Of a DNA stretch of 64,000 nt, positions 5,524 to 45,155 are shown piece by piece; positions within the stretch are counted from its first letter, which is position 1; each line of letters opens with the position of its first letter. Origin of the DNA: an uncultured Ruficoccus sp. GTDB lineage: Bacteria; Verrucomicrobiota; Verrucomicrobiia; Opitutales; Cerasicoccaceae. Under the pieces are notes generated by a model. That model was not told the origin of the DNA. It saw only the letters and a list, made by a program, of their open reading frames with translations, and did no database searches. The stretch lies in assembly GCA_965140785.1 (NCBI GenBank), contig OZ223518.1, positions 1-64,000 of the forward strand, in the 5' to 3' direction. The position numbers and the translations under genes were made by a program.

Positions 5524-5840
5524 GTTAGCCTAGTTCATTGAAGATGTATTTTGAGCCACAAAAGCCACAAAACTCACAAAAAATCAGGATAAGACTCGAA
5601 TCTAGAAAGGGCAGTTCCGGTTTTGTGCTTTTTGTGCCTTTTTGTGGCCATTAGTATTTTATTGGAAACTAGGCCACGTGGACAAAATACTCATGTCGCC
5701 GCCTTTGGCGCTTTTAGGCCCCAAATCCATGTCCTCAGCTCGACAATTCGGCAAATTGCCTCGCTTCGAAACCTGAATTTCGGACCAAAAATCGCCTTCG
5801 GTTGCTCGTTCCGTATTTTGTCCACGCGGCCTAGGCTAAC
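5524..5840. mobile_element. MITE-like element family C copy 1 (terminal GTTAGCCTAGTTC...CTAGGCTAAC), interrupted by a family A insertion
   Basis: Flanks match 45803-45946; right terminus split at CTAG by 5673-5830. Confidence 0.75.
5673..5830 (-). mobile_element. Structured rod-like repeat family A copy 1, flanked by CTAG direct repeat
   Basis: 18-bp terminal IR GCCACGTGGACAAAATAC/GTATTTTGTCCACGCGGC; CTAG at 5669-5672 and 5831-5834; internal motifs shared with 9906-10066 and 44995-45155. Confidence 0.8.
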
Positions 5841-5844
5841 GGGA

Positions 5845-5866
5845 TATTTATGTGAACAAATTTTCA
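5845..5866 (+). promoter_or_regulatory. Candidate LexA (SOS) box upstream of the Y-family polymerase
   Basis: TATTT-ATGT-GAACA resembles the Verrucomicrobia TGTTC-N4-GAACA motif (2 mismatches); overlapping GAAC-AAAT-TTTC. Confidence 0.45.
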
Positions 5867-5958
5867 CTAAATTGACTTGCGCGCAAGCGGCAAATCGGCG
5901 AGGATGGGAAAGTCTTGAGCGGGCCGAATTCCGCTCCCGCGAACCCGTCCGATAACCC

Positions 5959-7209
5959 ATGCCGCTGCGTTACATCTTTGTCGATCTGGACAGCTACTTC
6001 GCCTCGTGCGAGCAGCACCTGCAGCCGCGCTTGCGCGGGCGGCCTGTCGGCGTGGTGCCGGGCCTGAACGAGGGCACCTGCTGCATCGCCGCCAGCTACG
6101 CGGCCAAGGCCTGCGGGGTCAAAACCGGTACCGGCGTGCGCGAGGCGCGCTTCCTGTGCCCGGAGATCGAGCTGGTGGAGTCGCACCCGCGCCAATACGT
6201 GGAGATTCACCATGAAATCAAGGACGCGGTCGAGCGGCACCTGCATATTATTGACGTCAAATCCATCGACGAGATGTACGGCGAGCTGCCCTCGCACCAC
6301 CGCAACGAGTCCGACGCGCGCCGGATTGTCGAGGCCATCCGCACCGACATCGCCGAAAACGTCGGCCCCTCCCTGACCTGTTCCTTCGGCGTCGGGCCGA
6401 ACATCCTGCTGAGCAAGGTCGGCAGCGGCATGAACAAGCCCAGCGGGACCACCCTGATCCACGACCACAGCTGGCCGGGCTGCTTCGTCGGGCTGAAGCT
6501 GCGCGACTGGTACGGCATCGGCAAAAACATGGAGCGTCGCTTGGCCGCCCACGGCATCCGTACCATTGAGCAGCTTTACGGAGCCGATTGCCGCCTGCTG
6601 CGCCAGATCTGGGGCGGGATCGAGGGTGAACGGCTCTTCGCTGAGCTGCGCGGGGCAGAGGTCGAGCGCCCGCCCATTCGGCACCGCCACCTCAGCCATT
6701 CGCACGTGCTGCCCCCGCGCAAGCGCACCCGCTCGGGGGCGTTCGCCGTGCTCAACCGCCTGACCCAGAAGGTCGCGACCCGCTTGCGGCACGAAGGGTT
6801 TTTCGCCGGGTCGATGGAGATCGGCGTGCGCTACGCCTTTCGTTCGAAGTGGACGGCCGAGACGCATTTTTTCGAGACGCAGGAGACGGCGGTCTTTTTA
6901 AAAATGCTGCGCAAGCTCTGGGCGGACATGCCGCACGGTCAGGATGCTTCGACCGGGCTCAGCATAGGCGATCCCACGCAGGTCTGGGTCGTGCTGGGCA
7001 AGCTCGTTCCCACCGAGCAGGACTGCCCGCCGCTTTTCGCCGACTGGCGCGACGAACGCCGCGCCGCCCTCGACCGTACGATGGACACGCTCAACCGCCG
7101 CTACGGCACCCGCTGCCTCTACTACGCCGGGGCCCACGAAGGCCGTGACGAGGCCCCCATGCGCATCTCCTTCACCCACGTGCCCGACCTGGAGGTGGAG
7201 CGGGATTAA
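5959..7209 (+). CDS. Y-family DNA polymerase (DinB/Pol IV-like)
   Basis: FVDLDSYFASCE, IAASYAAK..GVKTG, SIDE catalytic motif, SFGVGPN..L.K...MNKP.G. Confidence 0.92.
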   Translation: MPLRYIFVDLDSYFASCEQHLQPRLRGRPVGVVPGLNEGTCCIAASYAAKACGVKTGTGVREARFLCPEIELVESHPRQYVEIHHEIKDAVERHLHIIDVKSIDEMYGELPSHHRNESDARRIVEAIRTDIAENVGPSLTCSFGVGPNILLSKVGSGMNKPSGTTLIHDHSWPGCFVGLKLRDWYGIGKNMERRLAAHGIRTIEQLYGADCRLLRQIWGGIEGERLFAELRGAEVERPPIRHRHLSHSHVLPPRKRTRSGAFAVLNRLTQKVATRLRHEGFFAGSMEIGVRYAFRSKWTAETHFFETQETAVFLKMLRKLWADMPHGQDASTGLSIGDPTQVWVVLGKLVPTEQDCPPLFADWRDERRAALDRTMDTLNRRYGTRCLYYAGAHEGRDEAPMRISFTHVPDLEVERD

Positions 7210-7299
7210 GGAGGAACCCGGTACGATTCGGGCAGGGTGGGATTTTGGACTGGTAATAGCGCCGCTCCGGTCCATGAGTAGGGGCGACCGCCTTTTGCC

Positions 7300-7623
7300 A
7301 TGGACAAAGAAAAAGTTCCTTTTCCCTTCCAGGCCGCCCGTTACAGCTTCTGGGCGCCGATCGGCTCATTTTTCCTCAATTTCGGGGCTAACGCCGCTTC
7401 GGCCGAGAGCCAGACCGCTTCGCTGGTTATCGGCCTGCTGTGCATCCTGCTGGTCGTGTCCGGGTTTATTCTGGCGATTTACGCCTTGATCGTTTCGGGC
7501 CAGCCCCGCCGAAAGGGGCACCTCGGCTACGCTATTGCCGGGCTGATCCTGAACGGGCTGCTCCTCCTCGCGATGGTTTTCGCGATCATGGCGATCGCGC
7601 AGGCCATGGCTGAGCAAGCCTGA
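7300..7623 (+). CDS. Small hypothetical membrane protein
   Basis: Two to three hydrophobic segments; G.AIAGLILNG motif. Confidence 0.65.
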   Translation: MDKEKVPFPFQAARYSFWAPIGSFFLNFGANAASAESQTASLVIGLLCILLVVSGFILAIYALIVSGQPRRKGHLGYAIAGLILNGLLLLAMVFAIMAIAQAMAEQA

Positions 7624-7624
7624 G

Positions 7625-8917
7625 CTAGGGCCTGTTAACGCGGACGTAAACCCGGTCGTTGGTGCGGACTTTTTCGGGGATGGGGAAGGTGATCTCGTCG
7701 CCGGGGCGGGCGGTGTCGATCGTTTGCTCTTCGATTCGCATGGGCGGGCAGGGCAGCGTCACGACGCCAGTGGTCGGCCCCTGTACCATGAGTTCTTCGC
7801 CGACTTTGATCCCGCGATTTTCCACGCGCACATGGGCGATGCCGGACTTCGGGTAGTAGTTGAGGACGCGCCCGAGGTGGAACTTGCGGTGGGAGGCTGC
7901 GCTGCCGCCGGCTTCGCTCCACGCGTTGAGCGGCTGGCCGTGGTAGAACCCCTCCGAAAATCCCCGGTGGTAAACGCTTGCGAGCCGCGGCATCTCCTCG
8001 GCTTTGAGCGTGTCCAGGCCGTCCTGCCACGCGGGCGAGGGCTCGGCGGGGCGAGTCATGCAGGTGTCGAGCACACGGCGGTAGGCGGACGTGACCACGG
8101 ACACATACTCGGGGTTGCGGTTGCGGCCCTCGACCTTGAAACTGTGAACGCCCGCCTCAACCAGCTGTTCGATAAAGGGCAGCGTGCAGAGGTCTTTGGG
8201 ACTCATCACGTAATCGTGTCCGAGATCGAAGGCCAGGTCGCCGTCTCTGGAGGAAACGGCGTACTCCCGCCGGCAGGGTTGGAGGCACTCGCCCCGGTTG
8301 GCGGACTTGCCGTACTGGTGGTAAGACATGAAGCACCGCCCGCTGAGCGCGACACACATCGCGCCATGGGCGAAAGTCTCCAGCTCCACGTGGGCGAGCC
8401 CGCTCTGGTCGAGCCGGGTGCGTATCTGGCGGATGTGCTCCAGGGTGCATTCGCGGGCAAGGACGGCGCGGTTCACGCCGAAACTCTCATGGTAAAAGCG
8501 CAGCGCGTCCGTGTTGGCGACCGAGGCCTGCGTGGAGAGCATGACCGGCAGCCCGCAACGGCGTGCCGCCAGCAGCACCGCCGGGTCCCACGCGATCACG
8601 GCGTCGATCCCCGCCTCGGCGGCGCGGGGAAGTAGCCGGTCCAGCACAGCGCGTTCATCCTCGTAAACGATGGTGTTGACCGTCAGGTAGGCCTTGGCAC
8701 CGGCCTCATGCGCCTGTCGGGCAATGTCTGGAAGATCGTTGTCCGTAAACGCCGACTGGGAGCGCATGTTAAACGCCTCGGAGCCGAAATAAACGGCGTC
8801 CGCCCCGGCCTTGAGCGCCGCGGTCAGGCAGGTGAAGTTGCCCGCCGGGGCCAGCAGCTCCAGCGTCGAGCGCCGGAGACTGGGAGGGGTTTCGCATGAG
8901 CCGTCCATCGGGGGCAT
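7625..8917 (-). CDS. Peptidase U32 family protein (tRNA/rRNA hydroxylation Fe-S type)
   Basis: ELLAPAGN, GADAVYFG, ETFAHGAMC..SGRC, NRGECLQPCRR, MSPKDLC, FKVEGR; exact start uncertain. Confidence 0.9.
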   Translation of the reverse strand: MPPMDGSCETPPSLRRSTLELLAPAGNFTCLTAALKAGADAVYFGSEAFNMRSQSAFTDNDLPDIARQAHEAGAKAYLTVNTIVYEDERAVLDRLLPRAAEAGIDAVIAWDPAVLLAARRCGLPVMLSTQASVANTDALRFYHESFGVNRAVLARECTLEHIRQIRTRLDQSGLAHVELETFAHGAMCVALSGRCFMSYHQYGKSANRGECLQPCRREYAVSSRDGDLAFDLGHDYVMSPKDLCTLPFIEQLVEAGVHSFKVEGRNRNPEYVSVVTSAYRRVLDTCMTRPAEPSPAWQDGLDTLKAEEMPRLASVYHRGFSEGFYHGQPLNAWSEAGGSAASHRKFHLGRVLNYYPKSGIAHVRVENRGIKVGEELMVQGPTTGVVTLPCPPMRIEEQTIDTARPGDEITFPIPEKVRTNDRVYVRVNRP

Positions 8918-9064
8918 TTAAGGCGGGGTGTTGCCGCCAGGCAAGCTGGGATGTACGCGCTGGATTTGCCGTGCTATTGGCGGAGTCCCGAACAAGCGCT
9001 TGCCACCCGGCAAAGAAGCGTTGCCATCGGGCGGCGGAGATATTCAATGGGCTGCTTTGACGCG

Positions 9065-9859
9065 ATGGAATTCAACCTGAAAAAGATACTCAAGGCGCTC
9101 CTGCTGTCCAATTCCGAGCCGTTGTCCATCCGGGACATCCAGGCCGTCATCACCCGTTACCACGAGCAGGCCGAAGCTGAGCCGCCCGAGCCCGAGGCGG
9201 AGGAGCCCGCCGGCAACGGCGACGAGCAGGGCGTGATCGAGCCCATCATGGAGCAGGTCCCCTCGCTCCTGACCGCGACCCAGATCCGCGACGCCATGGA
9301 CGCCATCGCGCACGAGTTGGAAGAGCAGCGCGAGGTTTACCGGCTGCTCCAGGGGCCCGCCGGGTACCGCATCGCCACCGCCCCTGACTACGCCGAGTGG
9401 GTGCGCCTGCTGCGCAACGAGGCCAAACCGATGAAGCTTTCCCAGCCCGCGCTGGAGACCCTGTCCATCATCGCCTACCGCCAGCCCGTCACCCGGGCCG
9501 AGATGGAGGCCATCCGCGGCGTTTCGGTGGACAGCGCCGTGAGCAAGCTGCTGGAGCTGGAGCTGGCCCTCGTCACCGGGCGGGCCGACCTGCCGGGCCG
9601 CCCCATCCAGTACGGCACCACGGACAAGTTCCTGGAGTTCATCGGCGTGCGTTCGATCGAGGAGTTGCCCGCCTCCGATGTGCTTTCGCCCAGCCAGATC
9701 ACCGAGTGGTTCCGTCGCTCCACTCAGGAGGACGAGGAACTGACTGACAAGGACGTCGGCCTGCCCGAAGAGCCGCAGGAAGAAGCCACGCCGGAGGTCG
9801 GGGACGAAGAGGCCGACGAGGAGGAAGAGGAAATCCGCACCGCTCCCGCCGAGGACTGA
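9065..9859 (+). CDS. scpB: SMC-Scp complex subunit ScpB
   Basis: LSQPALETLSIIAYRQPVTRAEMEAIRGV and PGRPIQYGTT.KFLE; acidic tail. Confidence 0.95.
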   Translation: MEFNLKKILKALLLSNSEPLSIRDIQAVITRYHEQAEAEPPEPEAEEPAGNGDEQGVIEPIMEQVPSLLTATQIRDAMDAIAHELEEQREVYRLLQGPAGYRIATAPDYAEWVRLLRNEAKPMKLSQPALETLSIIAYRQPVTRAEMEAIRGVSVDSAVSKLLELELALVTGRADLPGRPIQYGTTDKFLEFIGVRSIEELPASDVLSPSQITEWFRRSTQEDEELTDKDVGLPEEPQEEATPEVGDEEADEEEEEIRTAPAED

Positions 9860-9905
9860 GCTTCTGGCCGGTTCGATCAGGCACTTGTATGATTTTGCCA
9901 ACACA

Positions 9906-10066
9906 GGCTGTGTCTTCAAATTATCTCACGTCGTCCACTCGGTCGGATTTTGGCCCGTATTTCATTTCCTCGGTTCGACAAATCTGGATTTGCCTCACCT
10001 CGAAAGCCAAAATACGTTCTCAAAACCAACCTTTGCGGACTCGTTCCGTAATGTGAAGACACAGCC
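9906..10066 (-). mobile_element. Structured rod-like repeat family A copy 2
   Basis: Terminal IR GGCTGTGTCTTCAAATTA/TAATGTGAAGACACAGCC; shared TCACGTC, TCGACAAAT..ATTTGCCTC and CTCGTTCCGT motifs. Confidence 0.8.
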
Positions 10067-10114
10067 AAAAATAAAAATCTCCGTTTTCGTTACCATCTTT
10101 TGTAAAACCCGCCC

Positions 10115-11182
10115 ATGGATCTGGAAAAAGTCCGCACCCGTATTGATGAGATTGACCGCGAGATCGTGGCCAAGCTGAACGAGCGGCTCACCCTCGCCGG
10201 GGATGTCGCCGCCGCCAAGGCCGAGGCCGGGCTGCCGATTTTTATGCCCGAGCGCGAGGAGCAAATCTTTTTAAAACTGGCCAAGCTCAACACCGGTCCG
10301 CTCGACGAGGCCACCCTGCGCCGCATCTACGGGGAGATCATTTCCGTCACCCGCGCCCGCCAGCGCAAGCTGCGCATTGCCTACCTCGGGCCGGAGGCCA
10401 CCTACACCGAGCAGGCCGCGATCAAGCAGTTCGGCGGGCAGATCGAGACCATGCCCCAGCCGCTGATCCCGGACGTTTTCACCGCGGTGGAAAAGGACGA
10501 GGCCGACTACGGCGTCATCCCGATTGAGAACTCGACCGGCGGCGCCGTCCTGCACGCGCTCGACATGCTGGCCGAGACCGAACTGAAGATCGTTTCCCAG
10601 GTGTACCTGCCGGTCGAGCACTGCCTGATCTCCCGATGGCCCCTGGAGGCCATTACCGAAGTTCACTCCAAGGATCAGGCCCTGATCCAGTGCCGCGACT
10701 GGCTCGCCCGCCACCTGCCCAAGGCCCACCAGTTCGAGTGCGAAAGCACGGCCCAGGCCGTGCGCCACGCCGGCGAACACGAGGGCAGGGCCGCCATCGC
10801 CTCCGAGCTGGCCGCGGTCAAGTACGACGTCCCGGTCGTCGAGAGGGGCATTCAGGACCGCCCGGACAACGTCACGCGCTTCCTCGTCATCGGGGCCAAG
10901 CCCTGCGGACGCACCGGCGAGGGCGCCGACAAGACCAGCCTGGTCTTTTCCATCAACGACGAGATCGGGGCGCTCGAACGCGCCGTCAAGGCCTTCAGCT
11001 CGCGCGGGATCAACATGACCAAGATTGAATCCCGCCCCAGCCGCCGCAAGGCCTGGGACTACCTCTTTTTCGTGGACATCATCGGCCACTGGGAGGACGA
11101 GGTCGTCCAGGCCGCCGCCGACGATCTCAAAAAAGCCTGCCGCCTGGTCAAATGGCTCGGCAGCTACCCGAATACGAAGTAG
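10115..11182 (+). CDS. pheA: Chorismate mutase/prephenate dehydratase (P-protein)
   Basis: N-terminal LEKVRTRIDEID; AYLGPEATY, PIENSTGG, NVTRF, NMTKIESRP, WLGSYP. Confidence 0.96.
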   Translation: MDLEKVRTRIDEIDREIVAKLNERLTLAGDVAAAKAEAGLPIFMPEREEQIFLKLAKLNTGPLDEATLRRIYGEIISVTRARQRKLRIAYLGPEATYTEQAAIKQFGGQIETMPQPLIPDVFTAVEKDEADYGVIPIENSTGGAVLHALDMLAETELKIVSQVYLPVEHCLISRWPLEAITEVHSKDQALIQCRDWLARHLPKAHQFECESTAQAVRHAGEHEGRAAIASELAAVKYDVPVVERGIQDRPDNVTRFLVIGAKPCGRTGEGADKTSLVFSINDEIGALERAVKAFSSRGINMTKIESRPSRRKAWDYLFFVDIIGHWEDEVVQAAADDLKKACRLVKWLGSYPNTK

Positions 11183-11202
11183 CGACTGGGCAACCCTATC
11201 TC

Positions 11203-11616
11203 ATGTCAGACGAAGCACCCAGCACCGGCCTTTTTTCGAGCAGGAAGTCCCTGTGGGTATTGGGGATCGGTTTTGCTATCCTCGTGCTGGTGCACGGCTA
11301 CGCGCTCTGGGAGCAGGCGGAGCCCTTCGATGATCGGCCCTTTGACGCCGAAACCTGGCGCATGTTCGCCGGGAGCGAGGTGCCCGACAATCCCCGGGGC
11401 CGGATGGCCGAGGCGGTTGTGTCCGAAGTCCTGGAGCCGGGTATGACCCGCGAAGCGGTGGTGGAAATGCTCGGCCCGGCCGAGTTTGAGGACCCGACGG
11501 GCCCGCTCACCTACAACCTCGGTATGTGGTCCGGCCCGCGCACGGAGTACGACTGGTTGGATATTTATTTTGATACTGACGGGCGTTTCACCCATGCTGA
11601 GATCGTCCAGCATTAA
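11203..11616 (+). CDS. Hypothetical membrane-anchored protein with SmpA/BamE-like motif
   Basis: Single TM helix, then PGMTREAVVEMLGP. Confidence 0.6.
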   Translation: MSDEAPSTGLFSSRKSLWVLGIGFAILVLVHGYALWEQAEPFDDRPFDAETWRMFAGSEVPDNPRGRMAEAVVSEVLEPGMTREAVVEMLGPAEFEDPTGPLTYNLGMWSGPRTEYDWLDIYFDTDGRFTHAEIVQH

Positions 11617-11631
11617 CAAAAAAGTATTCCT

Positions 11632-12675
11632 ATGACCCAACCTTTACGCATCGGTTTTATCGGAGCAGGTGGTAACACCCGCCAAATGCACATCCCCGGC
11701 TTCCAGGCTATTGAGGGCGTCGAACTCGCTGTCGTCTGCAACCGCAGCCAGGCCTCTTCGGAAAAGGTGGCCAGAGAATTCGGTATCGCCCGCGCCACTG
11801 CTGACTGGCGTTCGGTGGTGGACGATCCCGAGGTGGACGCCATCTGTATCGGCACCTGGCCCTACATGCACGCCGAGGTGACCATCGCCGCCCTGAAGGC
11901 GGGCAAGCACGTGCTGACCGAGGCCCGCATGGCCCGCGACCTGGACGAGGCCACCCGGATGTTTCAGGCCGCCCACAAGCACCCGGAGTTGATTGCCCAG
12001 ATCGTCCCGGCCCCTTTCACCTTTAAATACGACGCCACCATTATGGGCATGCTCGCCTCCGGTGGACTGGGCAAGCTGCGCGAAATCCGTGCCGCCCACC
12101 TCACCGCCGGGGCCGCCGATGCTTCCTCCGCCATCACCTGGCGTCAGGATGGCGAACTCAGCGGCAAGAACATCCTGACCATGGGCATCCACTACGAGAC
12201 CATCCAGCGTTGGCTCGGCGGGCAGGACCCGGCCTGGGTGCAGGCCACGGGCGCGGTTTACACCCCCGAGCGCATGAACGCCGAGACCGGCCAGATGCAG
12301 GCGGTGGACATCCCCGACTCGCTCAACGTCGTGGCCGGTTACGCCGATGGGTTCCAACTGGTTATGACCTTCAGCGCCGTCGCGACCGGCGGCAGCTACT
12401 GGGGCATGCGTCTCGACGGCGATCTGGGCAGCCTGCGCTACGACCTTTCCACCCAGAGCCTTTTCCAGAGCAGAGTGGGGCAGGGGGAGGAAAAAACCGT
12501 CCCCGTCGCCCCCGAGGCCGAGGGTAAGTGGCAGGTCGAGGCGGACTTCGTGGCCTCCATCCGCGAGGACAAGCCGGTCACGCTGACCAGCTTCGCCGAC
12601 GGCCTGCGCTACATGCGCTTCACCGAGCGCGTCTGGGAGTCCTGGACGAGCGAAGGCCGCCGCGTGGCCTGGTAG
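11632..12675 (+). CDS. Gfo/Idh/MocA family oxidoreductase
   Basis: IGFIGAG Rossmann motif, VDAICIGTWPYMH, AGKHVLTEAR. Confidence 0.9.
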   Translation: MTQPLRIGFIGAGGNTRQMHIPGFQAIEGVELAVVCNRSQASSEKVAREFGIARATADWRSVVDDPEVDAICIGTWPYMHAEVTIAALKAGKHVLTEARMARDLDEATRMFQAAHKHPELIAQIVPAPFTFKYDATIMGMLASGGLGKLREIRAAHLTAGAADASSAITWRQDGELSGKNILTMGIHYETIQRWLGGQDPAWVQATGAVYTPERMNAETGQMQAVDIPDSLNVVAGYADGFQLVMTFSAVATGGSYWGMRLDGDLGSLRYDLSTQSLFQSRVGQGEEKTVPVAPEAEGKWQVEADFVASIREDKPVTLTSFADGLRYMRFTERVWESWTSEGRRVAW

Positions 12676-14320: not shown

Positions 14321-14327
14321 GTAACCG

Positions 14328-35847: not shown

Positions 35848-35886
35848 TGACAGCATTGCATCACACCCGGTCCTTCAGTGGGGAAG

Positions 35887-35963
35887 TGGTGGGAGTAACT
35901 GGGCTCGAACCAGTGACCTCATCCATGTCAAGGATGCGCTCTAGCCAACTGAGCTATACCCCC
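35887..35963 (-). tRNA. tRNA-Val (GAC)
   Basis: GGGGGTATAGCTCAGTTGGCTAGAGCGCATCCTT-GAC-ATGGATGAGGTCACTGGTTCGAGCCCAGTTACTCCCACCA; full cloverleaf with encoded CCA. Confidence 0.97.
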
Positions 35964-38177: not shown

Positions 38178-38278
38178 GTCTGGATCAGATTGGTAATTAT
38201 CCCATCAAGTTTCCGCAGGCTGACCAAAGGTTCCTGTCGGGGTCTGGGAGAGCAGGGAGGCGGTGGATGGCGCGGGGC

Positions 38279-38479: not shown

Positions 38480-38540
38480 GTCCTCTAGCTTAACCCGTTG
38501 TATGCCTCTGGCAATACAAATGAGAAGGGGATACAAGCTG

Positions 38541-38586
38541 TGCCGTGGCTATACTGCCGTGGCTATACTGCCGTGGCTATGATGCC
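38541..38586. repeat. 14-bp direct tandem repeat x3
   Basis: TGCCGTGGCTATAC TGCCGTGGCTATAC TGCCGTGGCTATGA TGCC. Confidence 0.9.
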
Positions 38587-38590
38587 TCAG

Positions 38591-38779
38591 TCAGCGCGCG
38601 GGATGCACGGTCTGGTCGACCTCGCTGCGGACGGTTTGTTGCTCCTGCTGCTGGATCATCATCTGATTGGCGCGTTGCTCGGCTTCGTTGTCATCAGCGG
38701 TGGCGCTGGCCGATGGGCTGCTGCAACCGGCACAGGCGAACAGGAGGAGAGCCGGGAAAATCGGGAGTACGTTTTTCAT
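38591..38779 (-). CDS. Small Gln-rich lipoprotein
   Basis: MKNVLPIFPALLLFACAG-C lipobox. Confidence 0.7.
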   Translation of the reverse strand: MKNVLPIFPALLLFACAGCSSPSASATADDNEAEQRANQMMIQQQEQQTVRSEVDQTVHPAR

Positions 38780-38864
38780 GGGTGAAAAGGTAATCGCCGG
38801 GGTGGAACGGGCAACGCAAATTCGTGGCCGGACCGGGCGGGCCTACTCAGTCGTTTTCCCGCAA

Positions 38865-40739
38865 TCAAACTTGCGTTGCGGGGGTTGTTTTGGCGTTGGG
38901 GGCGGGGCGGGCGAGCCCGAGCGCGATCAGGCAGATCTGGCTGAGGATGAAGATCACGATCCAGAAGAACGCCTTGTCCATGAAGCCGTAGGAGTGCAGG
39001 CCGACGCCGAGCATGTTCGTCCCGAACCACGACCAGACCGTGACGATGTTGCCGAAAACGGCCAGCAGCATGAAGCCGCGCTCGCCGACGAGGCGACCGA
39101 CGCGGGCATGCAGCATGAGCGCACACCACAGCACGATGATGAGCGCGCCGTTCTCCTTCGGGTCCCAGCCCCAGAAACGGCCCCAGCTCTGATCGGCCCA
39201 GACGCCGCCGAGCATGGTACCGACGAAGGAGAAAAGCAGGGCAAAACAGGTGATGCCGTACACCATGCGGTAGAGGGAAGCGGCGGTCTCGCGGGGCAGG
39301 CCGCCCGTCGGCAGGCGGCGCAGGACATACACGATGGCCAGCACCCCGGCCAGGAAGGTGGCCGAGTAGCCGATGGTGATAATGACCACGTGAGTTGCCA
39401 GCCAGAAGTTCGAGTCGAGCACGGCCTGCATCATTCCCAGCGTGTCGCCGCTGAGGGCTAGGTTGTGGGCGATGATCAGCGTGACGAAGCCGATCAGCCC
39501 GGCGACGAAGCTGCCGATGCCGTTGCGGTAGATGCGCTCCAGAATGATCCCGAGCAGGACCGCGCCCCAGCCCACGAAAATGGCCGAGGAGTAGAGGTTG
39601 GTCACGGGCGGGCGACCCTGGATGTACATACGGGCGCCCAGCCCGAAGGTGTGCACGAGGAAGGCCAGCACGAGCAGCCAGAAGGCCGAGCGCTGAAACG
39701 CCTGCGGCAGGCACAGCCAACTGATGGCGGCCAGGAGGAAAATCATGACGTACAAAATACTGGCCCGGTAGAAGGGCTCGAAGGTGTTGAAAAACTCCTC
39801 GAAGCCGACATGGCCCATCGGGCTGACCGGGTCGAGCCGCTCGTGCAGCCCGGCCAGGGTTTCGTTAAAGCCTGTCGCGTCACCTTGCCGCCACTGGACG
39901 GTGAGCTTGCCGTAGTCTTCGATTACGGGGTTGATCTGGTCGGTGCTGATGGTCAGCAGCAGGCCTTCGCCGAGGTTGAGCCAGTCATTGACCTCCTTAT
40001 CCGTCTCGGTCATTGGCGGGACGATGCCGAGGTCGCCGATGCGGGAGAGCTGGAGGTAGCGATTGGTCAGAAAGGTGAAACGCTCGAAGTCCTCCTTGTT
40101 GTAAGGCTTGTCCTGATCGCTGAGGCTGACGGCCTCGCGACCGGGGCCGACGATGCGCTCCCAGGCGCCGTACTCGAGCAGGAGCTGGTCGAGGTTGCCG
40201 CCGGGCTGGAGCGAGCGCGAGAGCAGGTCGTAGCGGGTGAGGGCGTTGGTGAGCTTGAGGAGCTGGCGCTCGTACACGCTGCGCAACTGGGGCTCGGGGT
40301 TGATCTGCGCACTCATCTCCTGAATGGTTTTAAAGTGCGGGCGCAGGTCGTCGAAGGAGAAGTACTTACGGTCGGCCTGCTGCCAGCCGAAGAGGCCGAG
40401 GACCTGCGGGTTGTCGATGCGGAAGACCGACATCTTGTCCGCGGCCACGGGGTTGAAGGACAGCTCCATGAACCAGGCGATGGCGCTGATCTTGCCGCCG
40501 TCGGCCAGCCGGGCGCTCTGGCGGCCACCGAGCAGGCGCAGGCTGTTGCGGGCGACCGAGTCCAGCGGCAGGACGCGCCCGCCCGACTGCACGGGCAGCT
40601 CGGCGAAGCTCTTGACATCGAACTCGGAGCTGTACCGCGGCGGCATCAGCCCGCGGCCCACGATGAGCAGGCCGACGATAGGAATGAGCCTGATGGAGAT
40701 GCTGAAGAGCAGACTGAGGAACGCGATAACCTGTTTCAT
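38865..40739 (-). CDS. ccsA: Cytochrome c biogenesis protein CcsA (system II) with large N-terminal soluble domain
   Basis: GRPPVTNLY, WLATHV, WADQSWGRFWGWDPKE (WWD), GLHSY. Confidence 0.93.
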   Translation of the reverse strand: MKQVIAFLSLLFSISIRLIPIVGLLIVGRGLMPPRYSSEFDVKSFAELPVQSGGRVLPLDSVARNSLRLLGGRQSARLADGGKISAIAWFMELSFNPVAADKMSVFRIDNPQVLGLFGWQQADRKYFSFDDLRPHFKTIQEMSAQINPEPQLRSVYERQLLKLTNALTRYDLLSRSLQPGGNLDQLLLEYGAWERIVGPGREAVSLSDQDKPYNKEDFERFTFLTNRYLQLSRIGDLGIVPPMTETDKEVNDWLNLGEGLLLTISTDQINPVIEDYGKLTVQWRQGDATGFNETLAGLHERLDPVSPMGHVGFEEFFNTFEPFYRASILYVMIFLLAAISWLCLPQAFQRSAFWLLVLAFLVHTFGLGARMYIQGRPPVTNLYSSAIFVGWGAVLLGIILERIYRNGIGSFVAGLIGFVTLIIAHNLALSGDTLGMMQAVLDSNFWLATHVVIITIGYSATFLAGVLAIVYVLRRLPTGGLPRETAASLYRMVYGITCFALLFSFVGTMLGGVWADQSWGRFWGWDPKENGALIIVLWCALMLHARVGRLVGERGFMLLAVFGNIVTVWSWFGTNMLGVGLHSYGFMDKAFFWIVIFILSQICLIALGLARPAPNAKTTPATQV

Positions 40740-41923
40740 GAGCGGGCTTGGGCGGAGCGGCGGGCGGTGAAGCGGACCAGGTGTATCATAAACTGGATAC
40801 ACATGCCGATGCCGACGACGAGGACGGCCAGGTAGGGCAGCAGCCAGCTGGGGTTGCGCACGACCTGGAGCATGGAGGCGGTGTTCTGCTTGGCAAAGGA
40901 AGCCTGATAAAAGGTGTAGCCGCCGTGGCGCAGGGGGTGGTTCATGTAGATGAGAGCGGGCTGGGGCGACTCGCCGGGAGTGAGGATGCGCACGTCGCTG
41001 GCGAAGTTTTTCGGGATATCGGTGCCGGGGTAAACGTCGTGGGTGAAGTTTTTCAGCGCCAGTGAGAAGGGCAGGTAGGTGCGCTTGAAGCGCAGGGCGA
41101 TCTCGTAGGTCTTGCCGCCCACCTCGACCGTCTGCGGCGGGAAGCGGTCATCGATCACGTTGGAAACGAGCCAGGAGCCCAGGGAGCCATCGGGGCCGAC
41201 CAGCTCGACAATGGCGGTGGTGGTATTGATGCCTTCCTGACTGTAGTCGGGCGCCTTCTCCACCGCAAACAGCCCCATGCGGGCGGCGGCGCCTCGGGTG
41301 GCACGCGGGGCGGGGCCGTTGGGATTTTGCATTTGGGTGCCCAGCCCGGCATTGATCATGAAGTCCTGCACATTGACCGTCAGGCCGAGGTCGGGCAGTT
41401 CGATGGGGCGCTCTTTTTTCAATAAACTTTGCGGGATACTGGTGACCGTGTCATAGTCGGGATTCGAGCGGTCGATGAGGACCAACTCGTTGCTCAGGTG
41501 GGTCTGGGCGAAGTTGCTCTGGCCGCCTTCGTCGATCCACATCTGGCTCTCTTCCTGCAGCCAGCTGACGAGAAAGCCGCTCACGATGAGCAGGACGACT
41601 CCGAGGTGGGTGAGGGCGATGCCGGCTTTTTTCCAGCTCGGGCGGTAGTAGCGGAAATGTGCGCAGCAGAGGTTGACCAGCAGGAGGATGCCCAGGGCGA
41701 AGCCGCCGGGCAGGGGCACTTTTAGCCAATGCAACTGCATGCCGCCGAACCACTCCGCCGGGTAGTGCCAGAAGACCAGGAAGCTCTCGAAGTAACGGCG
41801 CTGGGTCTCGTGGATGCCGAAGTGTACCTGATCGAGGGTACCGAAGAAGACCAGCAGGATACTAAAGGCCAGCAACACCACGGTCAGCCGCAGCGAACTT
41901 ATGAAACGGAAAAGGGACTTCAT
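40736..41923 (-). CDS. Cytochrome c biogenesis ResB/Ccs1-like protein
   Basis: SSLRLTVVLL..GTL.Q, THLG, IYMNHPL..GYTFYQASF; overlaps ccsA start (ATGA). Confidence 0.88.
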   Translation of the reverse strand: MKSLFRFISSLRLTVVLLAFSILLVFFGTLDQVHFGIHETQRRYFESFLVFWHYPAEWFGGMQLHWLKVPLPGGFALGILLLVNLCCAHFRYYRPSWKKAGIALTHLGVVLLIVSGFLVSWLQEESQMWIDEGGQSNFAQTHLSNELVLIDRSNPDYDTVTSIPQSLLKKERPIELPDLGLTVNVQDFMINAGLGTQMQNPNGPAPRATRGAAARMGLFAVEKAPDYSQEGINTTTAIVELVGPDGSLGSWLVSNVIDDRFPPQTVEVGGKTYEIALRFKRTYLPFSLALKNFTHDVYPGTDIPKNFASDVRILTPGESPQPALIYMNHPLRHGGYTFYQASFAKQNTASMLQVVRNPSWLLPYLAVLVVGIGMCIQFMIHLVRFTARRSAQARS

Positions 41924-42606
41924 GAGGCAGGGAAGCGCACGGAGCGCACGAAATCGAGGAAGGCGGGCGTCTGGGCCTGCACGGTGGCGGTGTCGCCCAT
42001 CAATTTAAAGAACCAGCTGGCTCCGGCGTGGGGGATGATCGCCCCGACCACGCTCTGGCCGCCGGGTCCGTCGAAATGAACGAAGAAACCGGTGTCGTCA
42101 CTGGCGGTCGTGAGGGCGTGCTGCTGGCGCTCGGCGTCGAGCTGGGCCTGCGTCATGGGGCCGAGGCCGACCTGGCCGGCCCAGCGGTTGACGTTGGCCA
42201 GGTCGCCGCCGACATCGCCCGGAAAGACCAGCACGCTGACCTCGGCGCTGCCGCCGGAGGGGCCGGGGATTTTCCAGCTGCCCTTGCGCATGGTGCCCAG
42301 GGGCTGGGCTTCCCAGTCAGCCGGGGCGGTCCACTGGGGCGTCTGGAAGCCAGCGGCCTGTTCAGCCAAGCCGGGAAGCGCGGTCATGCCCATGCCGCTA
42401 CCGGCAGGTTGAGCGGTTGCGCCGGGCTGAGCGGAAGTGGCTGAGCCGGCGTTGGCCGGGGCTGGCGAGGCGGCAGGCATCATGGGGGCGGAGGCCGGGC
42501 GTTCCTCCTTGGGAACCCGGTAGGTCGTCACCTCCTCGTCGGAACAGCCGCTGAGCAGGAGCGCCAGTGAGAGCAGCGCGCCCGCCGTGCAGGGGAAATA
42601 TCGCAT
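41920..42606 (-). CDS. Lipoprotein, first gene of the ccs operon
   Basis: LLLSG-C lipobox; GGDLANVNRW..Q.GL, WFFKL.G; ATGA coupling. Confidence 0.8.
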   Translation of the reverse strand: MRYFPCTAGALLSLALLLSGCSDEEVTTYRVPKEERPASAPMMPAASPAPANAGSATSAQPGATAQPAGSGMGMTALPGLAEQAAGFQTPQWTAPADWEAQPLGTMRKGSWKIPGPSGGSAEVSVLVFPGDVGGDLANVNRWAGQVGLGPMTQAQLDAERQQHALTTASDDTGFFVHFDGPGGQSVVGAIIPHAGASWFFKLMGDTATVQAQTPAFLDFVRSVRFPAS

Positions 42607-42787
42607 GGCCGAACGATTCCCATATTGCGCCCCCGGTCAAGGCTAACCGGTGGCCGGAAGTTTGACTTATGGGTGCGATTAGCGTTAGTTTTGGGAAAAC
42701 AAAGTTGGATAAACCAGCCGCCGGGCGGGAAGGACTTGAATCGCCCCCGCCGGGTTGGTAATTACCGTCGAAAGAAAGGGTTTTTTG

Positions 42788-43516
42788 ATGAAAGTACAGG
42801 TATTACAGCACGTTCCGTTCGAGTGGATCGGCAGCATGGAGCCTTGGCTGCTGGAGCGCGGGGCGGAGATTTTTACGGCGAAACTCTACGAGTCGGACGA
42901 CCTGCCAGACCCGGCGACGGTGGATCTGGTGATCGCCATGGGCGGGCCGATGAGCGTCAACGACGAGGCCGGGCACCCCTGGCTGGTGCCGGAGAAGGCC
43001 TTCCTGCGCGAAGCCGTCCAGCGCGGCGTGCCCACGCTCGGGGTGTGCCTGGGCGCGCAGCTCATCGCCAACGCGCACGGGGCCACCGTGGGGCGCAACC
43101 CGCAGCCGGAGATCGGCTGGTTCCCCATCGAGTCCGTGCCCGCGCCCCGGGGGACGTTTACCTTTCCGGCCAGGCTCGACGTTTACCACTGGCATGGGGA
43201 AACCTTCGGGTTGCCGGCGGAGGCCTCCCTGCTCGCGTCCAGTCTGGCGTGCAAGAACCAGGCCTTCCAGATGGGGGATAACGCCATCGGCATGCAGTTT
43301 CACCTGGAAACGACCCCCGAAACAGCCGCTCTGCTGGTCGAGAACTGCCGAGACGAGATCGTGCCGGGCGAGTACGTCCAGAGCGCCGAGGCCATGCTCG
43401 CCGCCCCGCCCGAGCGTTATGCGGCCATCAACAAACTCTCGGGCCGCATCCTCGACTACGTGCTCGGCAACCGCACCGGAGCGAAAAAGCGCCCCGAGGA
43501 CGTGATCATATTTTAG
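42788..43516 (+). CDS. Type 1 glutamine amidotransferase
   Basis: LQHVPFE, MGGPMSVND, GVCLGAQL, QFHLE triad. Confidence 0.92.
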   Translation: MKVQVLQHVPFEWIGSMEPWLLERGAEIFTAKLYESDDLPDPATVDLVIAMGGPMSVNDEAGHPWLVPEKAFLREAVQRGVPTLGVCLGAQLIANAHGATVGRNPQPEIGWFPIESVPAPRGTFTFPARLDVYHWHGETFGLPAEASLLASSLACKNQAFQMGDNAIGMQFHLETTPETAALLVENCRDEIVPGEYVQSAEAMLAAPPERYAAINKLSGRILDYVLGNRTGAKKRPEDVIIF

Positions 43517-43531
43517 AGGCGGGCGTTTTTT

Positions 43532-43654
43532 CTGGGCTTATGCAGCCCAGACCCGCAGCAGACGAAGTCTGCACTTTCGATGCTGCGCATCGTGTCTGCA
43601 ATTGCTGAAATGGATATCCATTTCAGCAATTGCAGAGCAAAAGCATCAAAACTG
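43532..43654 (+). repeat. Four-hairpin structured element family B copy X, including a perfect 42-bp palindrome
   Basis: Hairpins 43532-43550, 43558-43572, 43578-43592, 43595-43636; same order and spacing as the reverse complement of 58845-58975. Confidence 0.85.
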
Positions 43655-43745
43655 GGTCTCCACCATAGGATGGAATCTCTGTGGCAGGGGCCTTTGAGGA
43701 ACAGTGAGTGCTGACGATTGGTCAGGCAAGCTCTGTGCATTGCTT

Positions 43746-43830
43746 GGGGTAGCGGCCTTTTGGACGCGTAGGGGCGATAGCCCCTTCATGTCCCGTGCGG
43801 TCACGCACCCGCGTAGGGGCGCAGCCCCTC
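43746..43830. repeat. Two GTAG-type REP-like hairpins
   Basis: GCGTAGGGGCGATAGCCCCT (43766-43785) and GCGTAGGGGCGCAGCCCCTC (43811-43830); the latter is identical to 46006-46025. Confidence 0.75.
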
Positions 43831-43855
43831 AATCGGGTCAAGCGCCGAGCGCTTG

Positions 43856-44959
43856 TCACCCACCGATTTTGAAGAGGGTGACGTCGCCGTCTTTGAAGAG
43901 GTACTCTTTGCCTTCGAGGCGGTACTTGCCGGCGTCGCGGGCGGCGGCGATGGAGCCGGCGGCAATGAGGTCGTCGTAGGAGACGACTTCGGCCTTGATG
44001 AATTTCTTCTCGAAGTCGGTGTGGATGACCCCGGCGCATTGGGGGGCCTTCATGCCGAGGCGGAAGGTCCAGGCGCGGGTTTCCTTTTCGCCGGTGGTGA
44101 AGTAGCTGGCCAGCCCGAGCAGGCGGTAGGCCTCGCGGATGAGGCGGTTGCAGCCGCTGTCGGAGATGCCGAGGCTTTCGAGGTATTCTTTGGCCTCGTC
44201 GGGGGCGAGTTCGCCCAGTTCCTCCTCGACGCGGGCACAGATCGGGCAGTAGCCGGCACCGTGGTGCTCGGCGGCCCAGGCGGCGACCTTCTGGACGAGC
44301 GGGAGGTTGTCGGCGTCGGCCAGCTCGTCTTCCTTCACATTGCAGGCGTAGAGGACTTTTTTGGCCGAGAGCAGGTTGTAGAATTTTAAAAGCGCGCGCT
44401 CGTCGTCAGTCAGCTCCATGGTGATGACGGGCTTGCCCTCGCCGGTGTGGGCGAGGATGCGGGTGAGCAGGGCGTGGTGGGTCTGGGCTTCCTTGTCGCC
44501 GCTCTTGGCCTTCTTGGCCCAGCTGTTGAGCTGGCGCTCGACGCTTTCAAGGTCGGCCAGGACGAGTTCGGTGTTGATGATCTCGATATCGCGGACGGGA
44601 TCGACGCCGCCCATGTTGTGGATGACGTCGTCGTCCTCGAAGCAGCGCACGACGTGGACGATGGCGTCCACCTCGCGGATGTTGGCGAGAAACTTGTTGC
44701 CTAAACCTTCGCCCTTGCTGGCCCCGGCGACGAGCCCGGCGATGTCCACGAACTCGATGGCGGCGGGAATGATCGTGCGGGTACCGCCGATCTTGGCTAG
44801 CGGCGCCAAGCGTTCGTCCGGCACCTCAACGACACCGACATTCGGCTCGATGGTGCAGAAGGGATAGTTCGCTGCCTCCGCCTTACGGGTGCGGGTGAGG
44901 GCGTTGAAAAGGGTGCTTTTGCCCACGTTGGGCAGTCCGACGATTCCGGCTTGGAGCAT
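43856..44959 (-). CDS. ychF: Redox-regulated ATPase YchF
   Basis: [50 protein letters not shown]. Confidence 0.97.
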
Positions 44960-44994
44960 AGTTGCGGTGGAAAATGTTTTTGAGCTAAACCTGA

Positions 44995-45155
44995 GGGATC
45001 GTTCACCAATGACTCATGTCGTCTGCTTGGCTGGGTTCTGGGGCCTTTTTCGTGTTCTCCCCTCGACAATTCTCAACATTGCCTCGGTTCGAAGCCCGAA
45101 AACGTTTCTCAAAACCAGCCTGCGCATACTCGTTCCGTCATTTGCAAACAATCCC
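44995..45155 (-). mobile_element. Structured rod-like repeat family A copy 3
   Basis: Terminal IR GGGATCGTTCACCAATGAC/GTCATTTGCAAACAATCCC; shared TCATGTC, TCGACAAT..ATTGCCTC and CTCGTTCCGT. Confidence 0.8.

What the first reader, a model, noticed from the sequence alone, without database searches (positions are those of the whole stretch)
5673..45155. Family A: three ~160-bp rod-shaped elements with conserved loops but different, co-varying stems
Seen: copies at 5673-5830 (158 bp), 9906-10066 (161 bp) and 44995-45155 (161 bp). Each has an 18-19-bp terminal inverted repeat, but the three termini differ in sequence (GCCACGTGGACAAAATAC; GGCTGTGTCTTCAAATTA; GGGATCGTTCACCAATGAC). The unpaired parts are conserved: TCAYGTC opposite CTCGTTCC, and TCGA opposite CCTC beside the apical CAA..TTG hairpin. 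Inner stems also co-vary (GTCC/GGAC vs GCTGG/CCAGC; CGTATTT/AAATACG vs TTTTCG/CGAAAA). Most plus-strand mismatches are C-A and become G-U on the minus strand, where the loops are purine-rich (GGAACGAG/GACRUGA, GAGG/UCGA). All three copies share one orientation but sit in unrelated contexts. Inference: selection acts on a minus-strand single-stranded fold, not on terminal sequence as in a classical MITE. This fits an uncharacterised mobile structured RNA or ssDNA element moved by an enzyme encoded elsewhere.
Basis: partly seen in the sequence, partly recalled or inferred. Interest (0 to 1): 0.85.

Follow-up and report, generated by a model that had tools for sequence, protein, structure and literature searches.

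The report
Hairpin-shaped MITE of IS5-type transposases
The three 160-bp "rods" are copies of a small non-coding jumping element (a MITE) that borrows the transposase of IS5-family insertion sequences in a group of marine Verrucomicrobiota. It is an ordinary kind of element, except that its hairpin fold is kept unusually well.

Summary
Three ~160-bp copies lie at window 5672-5831, 9906-10066 and 44995-45155. They belong to a family with about 43 sites in this genome and to at least 37 sequence subfamilies in related genomes. The stems co-vary strongly: 48 of 56 pairs show changes on both sides, and 88% of cells are paired against 38-47% in slid controls. The window-minus strand folds better in 36 of 37 subfamilies.

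This is a classical MITE:
- Copies are flanked by TA (inside CTAG/CTAR), or by a 3-bp TNA duplication in one subfamily.
- A filled and an empty site within one genome prove a TTA duplication.
- Orthologous sites in sister species are empty.
- The differing termini are terminal inverted repeats, identical over 17-19 nt to the ends of IS5-family insertion sequences in relatives.

What remains unexplained is the interior, which does not come from the IS. Its stems are kept by compensatory change. Its apical ~40 nt are at least 90% conserved and carry two GA/GA loops. Inserted copies decay without regard to pairing and show no orientation bias toward genes. Selection therefore seems to act on the element's own spread, not on a host RNA function. 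I rate it a new member of a known kind.

The parts
5672..5831 (-). Copy 1 of the MITE (160 bp). It belongs to the young 'c1' subfamily, which has 8 members in the 85% cluster. It lies between an alpha/beta-hydrolase gene (4550-5431, minus) and a Y-family polymerase gene (5959-7209, plus).
   Evidence: Sequence. Fold -79.9 kcal/mol, z -9.09. CM match 160.1 bits. Cluster size. Flanking genes.
5670..5671 (.). Left flanking TA of copy 1, within C-TA-G. Together with 5832-5833 it is the putative 2-bp target duplication.
   Evidence: In the structured-strand orientation most of the 34 tabulated copies read cTA|GG...CC|TAg.
5832..5833 (.). Right flanking TA of copy 1.
5672..5689 (+). Left terminal inverted repeat of copy 1 (GGCCACGTGGACAAAATA).
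   Evidence: It pairs with 5814-5831 in the fold.
5814..5831 (+). Right terminal inverted repeat of copy 1. Its last 17 nt (ATTTTGTCCACGCGGCC) are identical to the end of an IS5-family transposase gene and IS in sister genome G004.
   Evidence: Alignment. Transposase identified.
5732..5770 (-). Apical domain of copy 1 and the most conserved part of the family (at least 90% per column in 37 representatives). On the minus strand it forms a hairpin with two 2x2 internal loops, each 5'-GA opposite 5'-GA. On the plus strand these read TC/TC.
   Evidence: Consensus line. Pair table (helix 4: 96% of cells paired, 9 of 13 pairs with change on both sides). The motif is absent from the IS sequences except inside a nested MITE.
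9906..10066 (-). Copy 2 (161 bp, 'c2' subfamily), between scpB (8951-9859, plus) and pheA (10115-11182, plus). Its flanks have decayed to CA/AA. The orthologous intergenic site is shorter by roughly the element's length or more in G001-G004.
44995..45155 (-). Copy 3 (161 bp), an old diverged singleton. It lies 36 bp upstream of ychF (43856-44959, minus) and downstream of a trypsin-like protease gene (46047-47735, minus). The site is empty in G002 and G003, and the G003 empty site holds a CTAG.

Best explanation
Family A is a family of ~160-bp miniature inverted-repeat transposable elements (MITEs). They are mobilised in trans by DDE transposases of IS5-family insertion sequences that resemble the IS427/IS1031 groups. 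The hosts belong to one family of Opitutales-type Verrucomicrobiota.

Shown:
- The outer 17-19 bp of each arm are terminal inverted repeats identical to the ends of transposase-bearing ISs in relatives.
- Insertion duplicates TA (within CTAG/CTAR) or, in one subfamily, TNA.
- Sites are polymorphic between species.
- Different subfamilies carry different end sequences of one pattern, the same pattern seen at the ends of several related ISs. This explains why the two termini of a copy change together.

Also shown:
- The interior does not come from the IS.
- It is a quasi-palindrome whose pairing is kept between subfamilies by compensatory substitutions.
- One strand folds better, through G-U/G-T pairs and purine-purine GA/GA loops.
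- A ~40-nt apical domain is nearly invariant.

Inferred: inserted copies decay without regard to pairing, show no orientation bias toward genes, and are most numerous where a cognate IS is present. Selection therefore probably acts on the lineages that keep transposing. The most likely benefit is a folded-back single strand or cruciform, perhaps with a protein bound to the apical domain, that brings the two ends of this very short element together for the transposase. The fold is not strictly required, because a 90-bp derivative without the core still reached 3 copies.
For: Target duplication:
- 23 of 32 scorable copies of the GAGGGCGTC-type subfamily have identical 3-bp flanks (TTA 13, TAA 7, TCA 3).
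- A copy sits inside a transposase gene at G014:C32:431-593 with TTA on both sides. The uninterrupted paralogue on G014:C53 reads ...CACC TTA GGGC....
- In this genome most of the 34 tabulated copies are flanked c-TA-...-TA-g. Six of them read CTA[A/T] on one side, which argues against a 4-bp duplication.

Partner IS in G014:
- It is about 876 bp. IRL and IRR share 18 nt, and the MITE shares 15-19 nt with them.
- It has two overlapping frames joined at an A-run.
- It matches Pfam DDE_Tnp_1 at 4.4e-30 and NCBIfam NF033580 'IS5 family transposase' at 131.7 bits against a cut-off of 110.

Partner IS in G004 (same genus):
- The transposase C-terminus runs into ...ATTTTGTCCACGCGGCC|TAG.
- This is identical over 17 element bases to the end of window copy 1; with the flanking TAG and one more base the identity runs over 21 alignment columns.
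- NF033580 scores 163.9 bits.

Other ISs. Five further IS5-family genes in the same bacterial family end in sequences of the MITE pattern (rc GGnnGTnTnTnnAAA) followed by TA.

Mobility. Copies 2 and 3 have empty orthologous sites.

Distribution:
- 12 of 61 relatives including G000 have a match, with the genus 4/4 and the family 9/15.
- 0 of 150 other genomes across the phylum match.
- 68 of 80 public loci found by motif are confirmed by the model.

Fold.

Decay after insertion:
- In 7 young clusters (66 copies) singletons fall equally on stem and loop sites (0.172 vs 0.184 per site, p 0.67).
- 68 of 144 stem singletons break the pair.
- The tight 32-copy cluster has 0 compensated changes.

Orientation. 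Of 43 sites, 16 have both neighbouring genes opposite to the structured strand, 7 both the same, 12 are convergent, 7 divergent and 1 is at a contig edge.

Literature. IS427-group ISs are 832-865 bp with IRs of 13-21 bp, mostly 2-bp DRs, and two ORFs with a frameshift motif (PMC3281130, Table 2 and passages).
Against: No cognate IS in this genome:
- The only PF13586 hit in G000 is a decayed IS5-family remnant with different ends, at C34:140544-140795.
- The G004 and G014 transposases find nothing in G000.
- No pair of matching ends 300-6000 bp apart encloses a transposase.
- The assembly is 90.85% complete in 50 contigs, so an IS may simply be unassembled.
- G001 and G007 carry 8 and 10 matches without any such transposase hit.

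Other weaknesses:
- The G004 IS is cut by a contig end, so its left end is unknown.
- A 2-bp and a 4-bp duplication cannot be strictly told apart for the main subfamilies, because CTAG is a palindrome.
- 8 of 32 copies of the TNA subfamily have flanks that differ only in the middle base. Simple duplication plus decay does not predict this.
- The proposed benefit of the fold for transposition is inference only. No assay, transcript or structure probing was available.
- Among single-sided singletons G-T outnumbers A-C 29 to 14. This could mean weak selection on inserted copies after all.
- The gene calls are my own GC3 heuristic.
Confidence: 0.8

Rival explanations
1. The element is first of all a structured RNA, either a regulatory or protein-binding RNA module or an sRNA read from the window-minus strand. 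It merely rides on MITE ends, and the fold is kept because the RNA works for the host or for the element.
For: - Compensatory change occurs in all helices, including the inner ones (helix 3: 20 of 21 pairs; helix 4: 9 of 13).
- G-U cells number 181 against 46 A-C cells.
- The minus-type strand is the more stable in 36 of 37 representatives.
- The apical domain, with two GA/GA loops, is at least 90% conserved and is absent from the IS.
- G-T outnumbers A-C 29 to 14 even among singletons.
Against: - There is no orientation bias toward neighbouring genes; if anything the structured strand is antisense (16 vs 7 in co-directional contexts).
- Inserted copies lose pairs freely, and loops evolve as fast as stems.
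- No Rfam family matches at gathering level or at E<=10.
- No run of T follows the hairpin.
- A derivative without the core still spread to 3 loci.
Confidence: 0.12
2. The stem covariation is a by-product of DNA-level correction of quasi-palindromes, that is, template switching between the arms during replication or intra-element gene conversion. No selection for any fold is involved.
For: - The element is a 160-bp imperfect palindrome, the substrate of this known mutational process (recalled from E. coli quasipalindrome work, not read here).
- 38 of 144 stem singletons in young clusters are changed on both sides, more than independent hits would give.
Against: - Correction should erase the asymmetric loops. 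Yet the apical GA/GA loops and two wobble pairs persist in 29-32 of 37 subfamilies.
- It does not predict that one strand stays better paired in 36 of 37.
- The tight 32-copy cluster shows 0 compensated changes among 28 stem singletons.
- The two-sided changes sit in the more divergent clusters, where 'singletons' may be separate founder lineages.
Confidence: 0.2
3. It is a single-strand DNA transposon of the IS200/IS605 (PATE) or REPIN/RAYT kind, moved by an HUH tyrosine transposase that recognises the hairpin.
For: - The fold is strand-asymmetric.
- Two Y1_Tnp hits exist in G000 and two in G014.
Against: - Target duplications are present, and HUH elements make none (established knowledge).
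- The ends equal DDE IS ends.
- There is no Y1_Tnp hit in G004, G001 or G050, which hold 47, 8 and 19 matches.
Confidence: 0.03
4. The main subfamilies of this genome are moved by an IS630/Tc1-mariner-type transposase, which duplicates TA inside CTAG, and not by an IS5-family enzyme.
For: The flanks read C-TA-G. The IS630 target preference is recalled, not tested.
Against: - The c1 end is identical to the end of an NF033580 IS5-family transposase gene.
- Related IS5-family ISs of the same bacterial family are likewise followed by TAG.
- IS427-group ISs also make 2-bp repeats (PMC3281130).
- I ran no search for IS630-type genes.
Confidence: 0.04

Closest known systems
MITEs derived from IS5-family insertion sequences, e.g. 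BrickBuilt/MITEPgRS of Porphyromonas gingivalis and the ATR element of Neisseria meningitidis (PMC4596501, passages read)
   Same: Short non-coding elements whose terminal inverted repeats are identical or nearly identical to those of IS5-family ISs in the same or related genomes. They have short target duplications, tens of copies per genome, an interior unrelated to the IS, and predicted long stem-loops.
   Different: There is no sequence relation. This family is a single ~160-bp rod without internal tandem repeats. It occurs in Verrucomicrobiota. It keeps one core under at least 37 sets of co-varying stems and several sets of IS-matched ends.
IS427 group (and the IS1031 group) of the IS5 family, as the likely autonomous partners (PMC3281130, Table 2 and passages; the IS1031 'TNA, GAG ends' rule is recalled from ISfinder)
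   Same: The partner IS in G014 is about 876 bp with 18-nt inverted repeats and two overlapping frames joined at an A-run. Duplications are 2-3 bp. The transposase matches NF033580 and PF01609.
   Different: Group assignment was not checked against ISfinder. The MITE itself encodes nothing and shares only its outer 15-19 nt with the IS.
Correia/NEMIS elements of Neisseria, RUP of Streptococcus pneumoniae and ERIC of enterobacteria (recalled, not tested here)
   Same: These are 100-160-bp palindromic intergenic repeats, some with a TA duplication, that fold into long hairpins when transcribed. For some of them, compensated stems and RNA-level effects have been discussed.
   Different: Here a cognate transposase family is identified, and no orientation bias that would point to an mRNA-level role was seen.
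REPINs / RAYT and IS200/IS605-derived palindromic elements
   Same: Hairpin-forming and strand-asymmetric, with many copies in intergenic DNA.
   Different: Those make no target duplication and depend on an HUH Y1 enzyme. Family A has TA/TNA duplications and DDE-IS ends, and it occurs in genomes without a Y1_Tnp hit.

Membership tests
MITE (non-autonomous DNA transposon) | Short, with no coding capacity | tested here: met
   158-170 bp. Changes on both sides of the stems, and indels between subfamilies, leave no conserved frame. No ORF test was run.
MITE (non-autonomous DNA transposon) | Terminal inverted repeats | tested here: met
   Helix 1 has 17 pairs with 92% of cells paired.
MITE (non-autonomous DNA transposon) | Target-site duplication | tested here: met
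   A filled site (G014:C32) and its empty paralogue (G014:C53) show a TTA duplication. 23 of 32 copies have identical TNA flanks. The main subfamilies are flanked by TA, though 2 bp vs 4 bp is not strictly resolved.
MITE (non-autonomous DNA transposon) | Many dispersed copies and presence/absence polymorphism | tested here: met
   About 43 sites in G000. 47 and 44 matches in G004 and G014. Empty orthologous sites for copies 2 and 3.
MITE (non-autonomous DNA transposon) | Ends shared with an autonomous element that encodes the transposase | tested here: met
   Shown for two subfamilies. Not found for the other subfamilies, nor inside G000 itself.
IS5 family, IS427/IS1031-like partner | The partner's transposase belongs to the IS5 family | tested here: met
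   NF033580 scores 163.9 and 131.7 bits against a cut-off of 110. PF01609 scores 5.1e-20 and 4.4e-30.
IS5 family, IS427/IS1031-like partner | About 0.85-kb IS, two overlapping ORFs with a frameshift site, 2-3-bp repeats | tested here: met
   The G014 IS is about 876 bp once the contig overlap is joined and the nested MITE removed. ORFs 19-345 and 188-442 overlap at an A-run. It is flanked by TTA/TTA. The frameshift itself is inferred. Reference values come from PMC3281130.
IS5 family, IS427/IS1031-like partner | Assignment to a named ISfinder group or IS | not testable with these tools
Any Rfam RNA family | Covariance-model match | tested here: not met
   At gathering level the window gives only a tRNA. 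Eight copies searched at E<=10 give two chance-level snoRNA/lncRNA hits.
IS200/IS605-type or REPIN (HUH-moved) element | No target duplication; a Y1 transposase in carrier genomes | tested here: not met
   Duplications are present. PF01797 hits are absent from 3 of 5 carrier genomes searched.
Intrinsic terminator or other gene-linked RNA hairpin | Fixed orientation relative to the upstream gene, with a T-run after the stem | tested here: not met
   Orientation classes are 16/7/12/7. No terminator-like site spans a copy's outer stem in the scan of 5500-10200; one short site lies inside copy 2.

The most novel reading that the evidence does not exclude
The nearly invariant apical domain and the strand-specific rod may be a functional single-stranded module in their own right. 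That module could be an RNA or a folded DNA strand with tandem G-A loops that binds a host or transposase protein. On this reading it has been refitted repeatedly with the ends of different IS427-like transposases. Either the fold is an obligatory, strand-specific intermediate of MITE transposition, or it is a structured RNA that uses MITE ends as its vehicle. The odd TNA flanks that differ only in the middle base (8 of 32 copies) would then be a trace of an unusual strand-specific integration step.
Probability: 0.2. Interest if true: 0.7.

Novelty: new member of a known kind. Interest (0 to 1): 0.4.

Why it matters
The finding gives marine Opitutales-type Verrucomicrobiota a defined MITE family together with its transposase partners. 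That is useful for annotation, because about 43 intergenic sites per genome would otherwise look like candidate RNAs. About 10 of the 43 sites abut a gene whose TAG stop lies in the target site.

It is also a warning case. Strong covariation statistics and a strand-asymmetric fold do not by themselves show an RNA gene. Two transposon ends bound by one enzyme co-vary as well.

The open part is why a 160-bp MITE keeps an IS-unrelated, compensated hairpin and an invariant GA-rich tip across dozens of subfamilies. This family would be a good system for testing whether folding helps very short elements bring their ends together.

Tried and rejected
- RNA evidence. The look-up of sequencing runs listed no RNA holder. 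Laying the contigs of three DNA runs gave no exact empty site, only one low-depth joint that skips 9774-10112 with unknown letters between.
- Autonomous copy in G000. The only pair of matching ends 300-6000 bp apart (C48:170775-174844) encloses ordinary genes: a PF03601-family protein, a LysR regulator and an unassigned ORF.
- Exact empty site for copy 1. The intergenic DNA is too diverged in G001-G004.
- Nested or interrupted copies on C43 and C47. These gave no clean junction.
- Per-copy mutation listing on the model alignment. It was spoilt by 1-nt register shifts, so I replaced it with cluster-wise realignment.
- A second G004 IS (C12). It is of another end type and truncated.
- Promoter scan. 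It found only weak consensus matches, including an outward -35-like hexamer in an end of copy 1. I do not treat this as evidence.
- Literature. Searches for a prior description were 'miniature inverted-repeat transposable' + 'Verrucomicrobia' (6 papers, none about such an element judging by title and abstract start), and MITEs + compensatory + secondary structure/stem-loop. I found no description of this family. ISfinder, Dfam and subscription journals were not searchable.
- Earlier notes of this scan. A look-up by sequence found nothing.

Full report
**What is there.** With the full inverted repeat their limits are 5672-5831, 9906-10066 and 44995-45155. Each folds into one long rod. The window-minus strand is much the more stable as RNA: -79.9, -76.5 and -61.4 kcal/mol, with z -9.1, -9.7 and -5.6 and 0 of 200 shuffles as good. 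The plus strand of copy 1 reaches only -56.8. No Rfam family matches, either at gathering level on the window (only a tRNA) or at E<=10 on eight copies.

**A genome-wide family.** The window is contig C47 of a 4.36-Mb, 50-contig assembly. Iterated nhmmer found 57 hits, 33 of them near full length. A covariance model built from 31 copies found 53 matches at E<=0.01, some on both strands of one site, and I took 43 distinct sites forward. The copies fall into subfamilies with different stems. In the alignment with flanks nearly every copy is bordered by cTA...TAg.

**Covariation is real.**
- On the 31 own copies, 85.4% of cells pair, against 33-47% when the partners are slid. 39 of 56 pairs change on both sides, and 0 of 500 shuffles reach this.
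- I then pooled own copies, copies from relatives and copies from public contigs. This gave 103 distinct sequences in 37 clusters at 85% identity. One representative per cluster was aligned to the model.
- On these representatives 88.0% of cells pair, against 38-47.5% slid, and 48 of 56 pairs change on both sides. All four helices take part: 14/17, 5/5, 20/21 and 9/13. This alignment is fitted to the model, which favours pairing, but the MAFFT-based count agrees.
- G-U cells outnumber A-C cells 181 to 46.
- The same strand is the better folder in 36 of 37 representatives with RNA parameters and 35 of 37 with DNA parameters.
- The part conserved at 90% or more across the whole family is the apical ~40 nt. 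On the structured strand it carries two 2x2 loops of 5'-GA opposite 5'-GA.

**It moves like a MITE.**
- A motif scan of one genome per species returned 90 stretches, of which 80 were listed. The model confirmed 68 of the 80 at E<=1e-12. All 68 lie in contigs titled Cerasicoccus, Opitutales, Verrucomicrobiia or Verrucomicrobiota. The 12 unconfirmed loci are singletons, most of them in unrelated taxa, which fits the chance expectation.
- In the largest public subfamily (ends GAGGGCGTC...), 23 of 32 scorable copies have identical 3-bp flanks: TTA 13, TAA 7, TCA 3.
- In genome G014 one copy sits inside a transposase gene with TTA on both sides. The uninterrupted paralogue reads ...CACC TTA GGGC.... 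This filled and empty pair shows the duplication directly.
- In the window's genome the flanks are TA inside CTAG. Six of the 34 tabulated copies read CTA[A/T] on one side, which favours a 2-bp over a 4-bp duplication. The palindromic target prevents a strict decision.
- The sites of window copies 2 and 3 are empty in sister species, and the G003 empty site for copy 3 contains CTAG.

**Whose ends they are.**
- In G014 the end of contig C38 overlaps the start of C32. Together they give an IS of about 876 bp (after removing the nested MITE) with 18-nt inverted repeats GAGGGCGTCTAAAAAGTC, flanked by TTA/TTA. The MITE shares 15-19 nt with these ends.
- That IS has two overlapping frames joined at an A-run. 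It matches PF01609 (4.4e-30) and NCBIfam NF033580 'IS5 family transposase' (131.7 bits, cut-off 110).
- In G004, a species of the window's own genus, an NF033580 transposase gene (163.9 bits) runs into ...ATTTTGTCCACGCGGCC followed by TAG. These 17 element bases are identical to the right end of window copy 1. Counting the flanking TAG and one more base, the identity runs over 21 alignment columns. The stop codon is supplied by the flank.
- Five more IS5-family genes of this bacterial family end in sequences of the same pattern followed by TA.
- These features agree with the IS427 group as tabulated in PMC3281130: 832-865 bp, IRs of 13-21 bp, mostly 2-bp repeats, two ORFs with a frameshift motif (Table 2 and passages). 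The TNA/GAG-end habit of the IS1031 group is recalled, not checked.
- MITEs recognised by IS5-family ends are on record elsewhere (PMC4596501, passages).

The differing, co-varying termini are thus the binding sites of different but related transposases.

**What speaks against this reading, or is missing.**
- G000 itself shows no cognate IS. Its only hit is a decayed IS5-family remnant with other ends, lying next to a MITE. The two transposase queries found nothing, and no transposase lies between matching ends. The assembly is 90.85% complete and repeats break assemblies, so this is weak evidence of absence.
- G001 and G007 have 8 and 10 matches and no such transposase hit. G004 (47 matches) and G014 (44) have one.
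- The left end of the G004 IS is lost at a contig end.
- In the TNA subfamily, 8 of the 9 unequal flank pairs differ only in the middle base. I cannot explain this.

**The interior.**
- The apical motif is not in the ISs, except inside the nested MITE, so the core is not IS-derived.
- Within 7 young clusters (66 copies) singletons hit stem and loop sites at the same rate: 0.172 vs 0.184 per site, p 0.67.
- 68 of 144 stem singletons break a pair, 38 keep it as a wobble and 38 are changed on both sides. The two-sided changes lie mostly in the more divergent clusters, and the tight 32-copy cluster has none.
- Among single-sided changes G-T outnumbers A-C 29 to 14.
- Orientation toward neighbouring genes shows no sense bias: both genes opposite to the structured strand 16, both the same 7, convergent 12, divergent 7, one at a contig edge. 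These rest on my GC3-based gene calls, which reproduced the Pfam-confirmed genes of the window.
- About 10 of the 43 sites abut a gene whose stop codon is the flanking TAG. This is expected for a CTAG-seeking element in a 60% G+C genome.
- A 90-bp deletion derivative without the core has 3 copies in G004. At least 37 full-length copies of its parent subfamily are listed there.

Together these results point to selection on the lineages that keep transposing, and away from selection on inserted copies. They also show that the core helps spread but is not indispensable. How the fold helps is inference. It could juxtapose the ends in a folded strand or cruciform, serve as a protein site at the tip, or act through an element RNA.

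**Rivals.** See the rival list for the full argument.
- A host-serving structured RNA is disfavoured by the orientation and decay data, but no RNA data could be had.
- Pure DNA-level quasi-palindrome correction does not explain the persistent asymmetric loops or the strand bias.
- HUH-type movement is contradicted by the duplications and by carrier genomes without a Y1_Tnp hit.
- IS630-type movement is contradicted by the end identity with IS5-family genes.

**Distribution and novelty.**
- Matches occur in 12 of 61 relatives including G000. The genus scores 4/4 and the family 9/15. Two genomes of other families in the order also match, one with 19 matches and one with a single weak match.
- None of 150 other genomes drawn evenly from the phylum matches.
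- I found no description in the searchable literature. ISfinder and Dfam could not be consulted.
I did not test it.

**Verdict.** This is a new MITE family of a known kind, with an unusually well documented compensated fold whose purpose is open.

Noticed in passing
G000 sites listed, e.g. C43:81213-81378, C26:49177-49341, C32:34122-34277: About 10 of the 43 Family A sites abut a flanking gene at distance -2 or -3. The gene's TAG stop codon is then the TAG of the CTAG target. In G004 the stop codon of the IS transposase itself is likewise supplied by the flank.
   Followed up: partly
L052-L131 (public contigs), counted: In the TNA-duplicating subfamily, 8 of 32 copies have flanks that are TNA on both sides but differ only in the middle base. 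Only 1 copy differs at an outer base. This is not what random decay of a duplication predicts.
   Followed up: partly
G000:C34:140544-140795 (L184:1482-2137): A decayed IS5-family element, with frameshifts and a TAG inside the match, lies directly beside a Family A copy (C34:140360-140520). Its ends (GCGAAYSGRCRTTCA) differ from the MITE's and resemble a complete ~850-bp IS at G003:C20:1-850.
   Followed up: partly
G004:C28 (L183:1380-1469), also G004:C48:29411-29500 and C11:74812-74899: A 90-bp internal-deletion derivative of the abundant G004 subfamily lacks the apical core. It is present at 3 loci at 97-100% identity, one of them directly abutting the end of the cognate IS.
   Followed up: yes
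G014:C38:41620-41735 and G014:C32:1-989: Two contig ends overlap by 59 nt and together make one IS5-family IS, itself interrupted by a Family A copy. This is an assembly break caused by the repeat.
   Followed up: yes
window 5656-5685 (minus strand): A promoter-like match uses a -35-like hexamer (TTGTCC) inside the terminal repeat of copy 1 and a -10-like hexamer in the flank. This is the arrangement by which IS ends can create outward hybrid promoters. It is a consensus match only.
   Followed up: no
G000 contigs C28, C41, C9, C44, C20, C15: Six contigs have 28-49% G+C, against about 60% for the rest of the assembly. They may be foreign DNA, plasmids or phages, or binning contaminants.
   Followed up: no
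G000:C10:480168-480497 and C43:224747-225076: Two Y1_Tnp (PF01797) matches lie in 309-aa open frames. Their presence does not track Family A.
   Followed up: no
window 35890-35963 (minus strand): A tRNA gene, the only Rfam match in the window at gathering level.
   Followed up: no
G000:C47:156926-157089, outside the window: A truncated Family A copy, starting at the apical domain, abuts the end of a coding region. It lies 116 bp from a full copy at C47:157205-157372.
   Followed up: no
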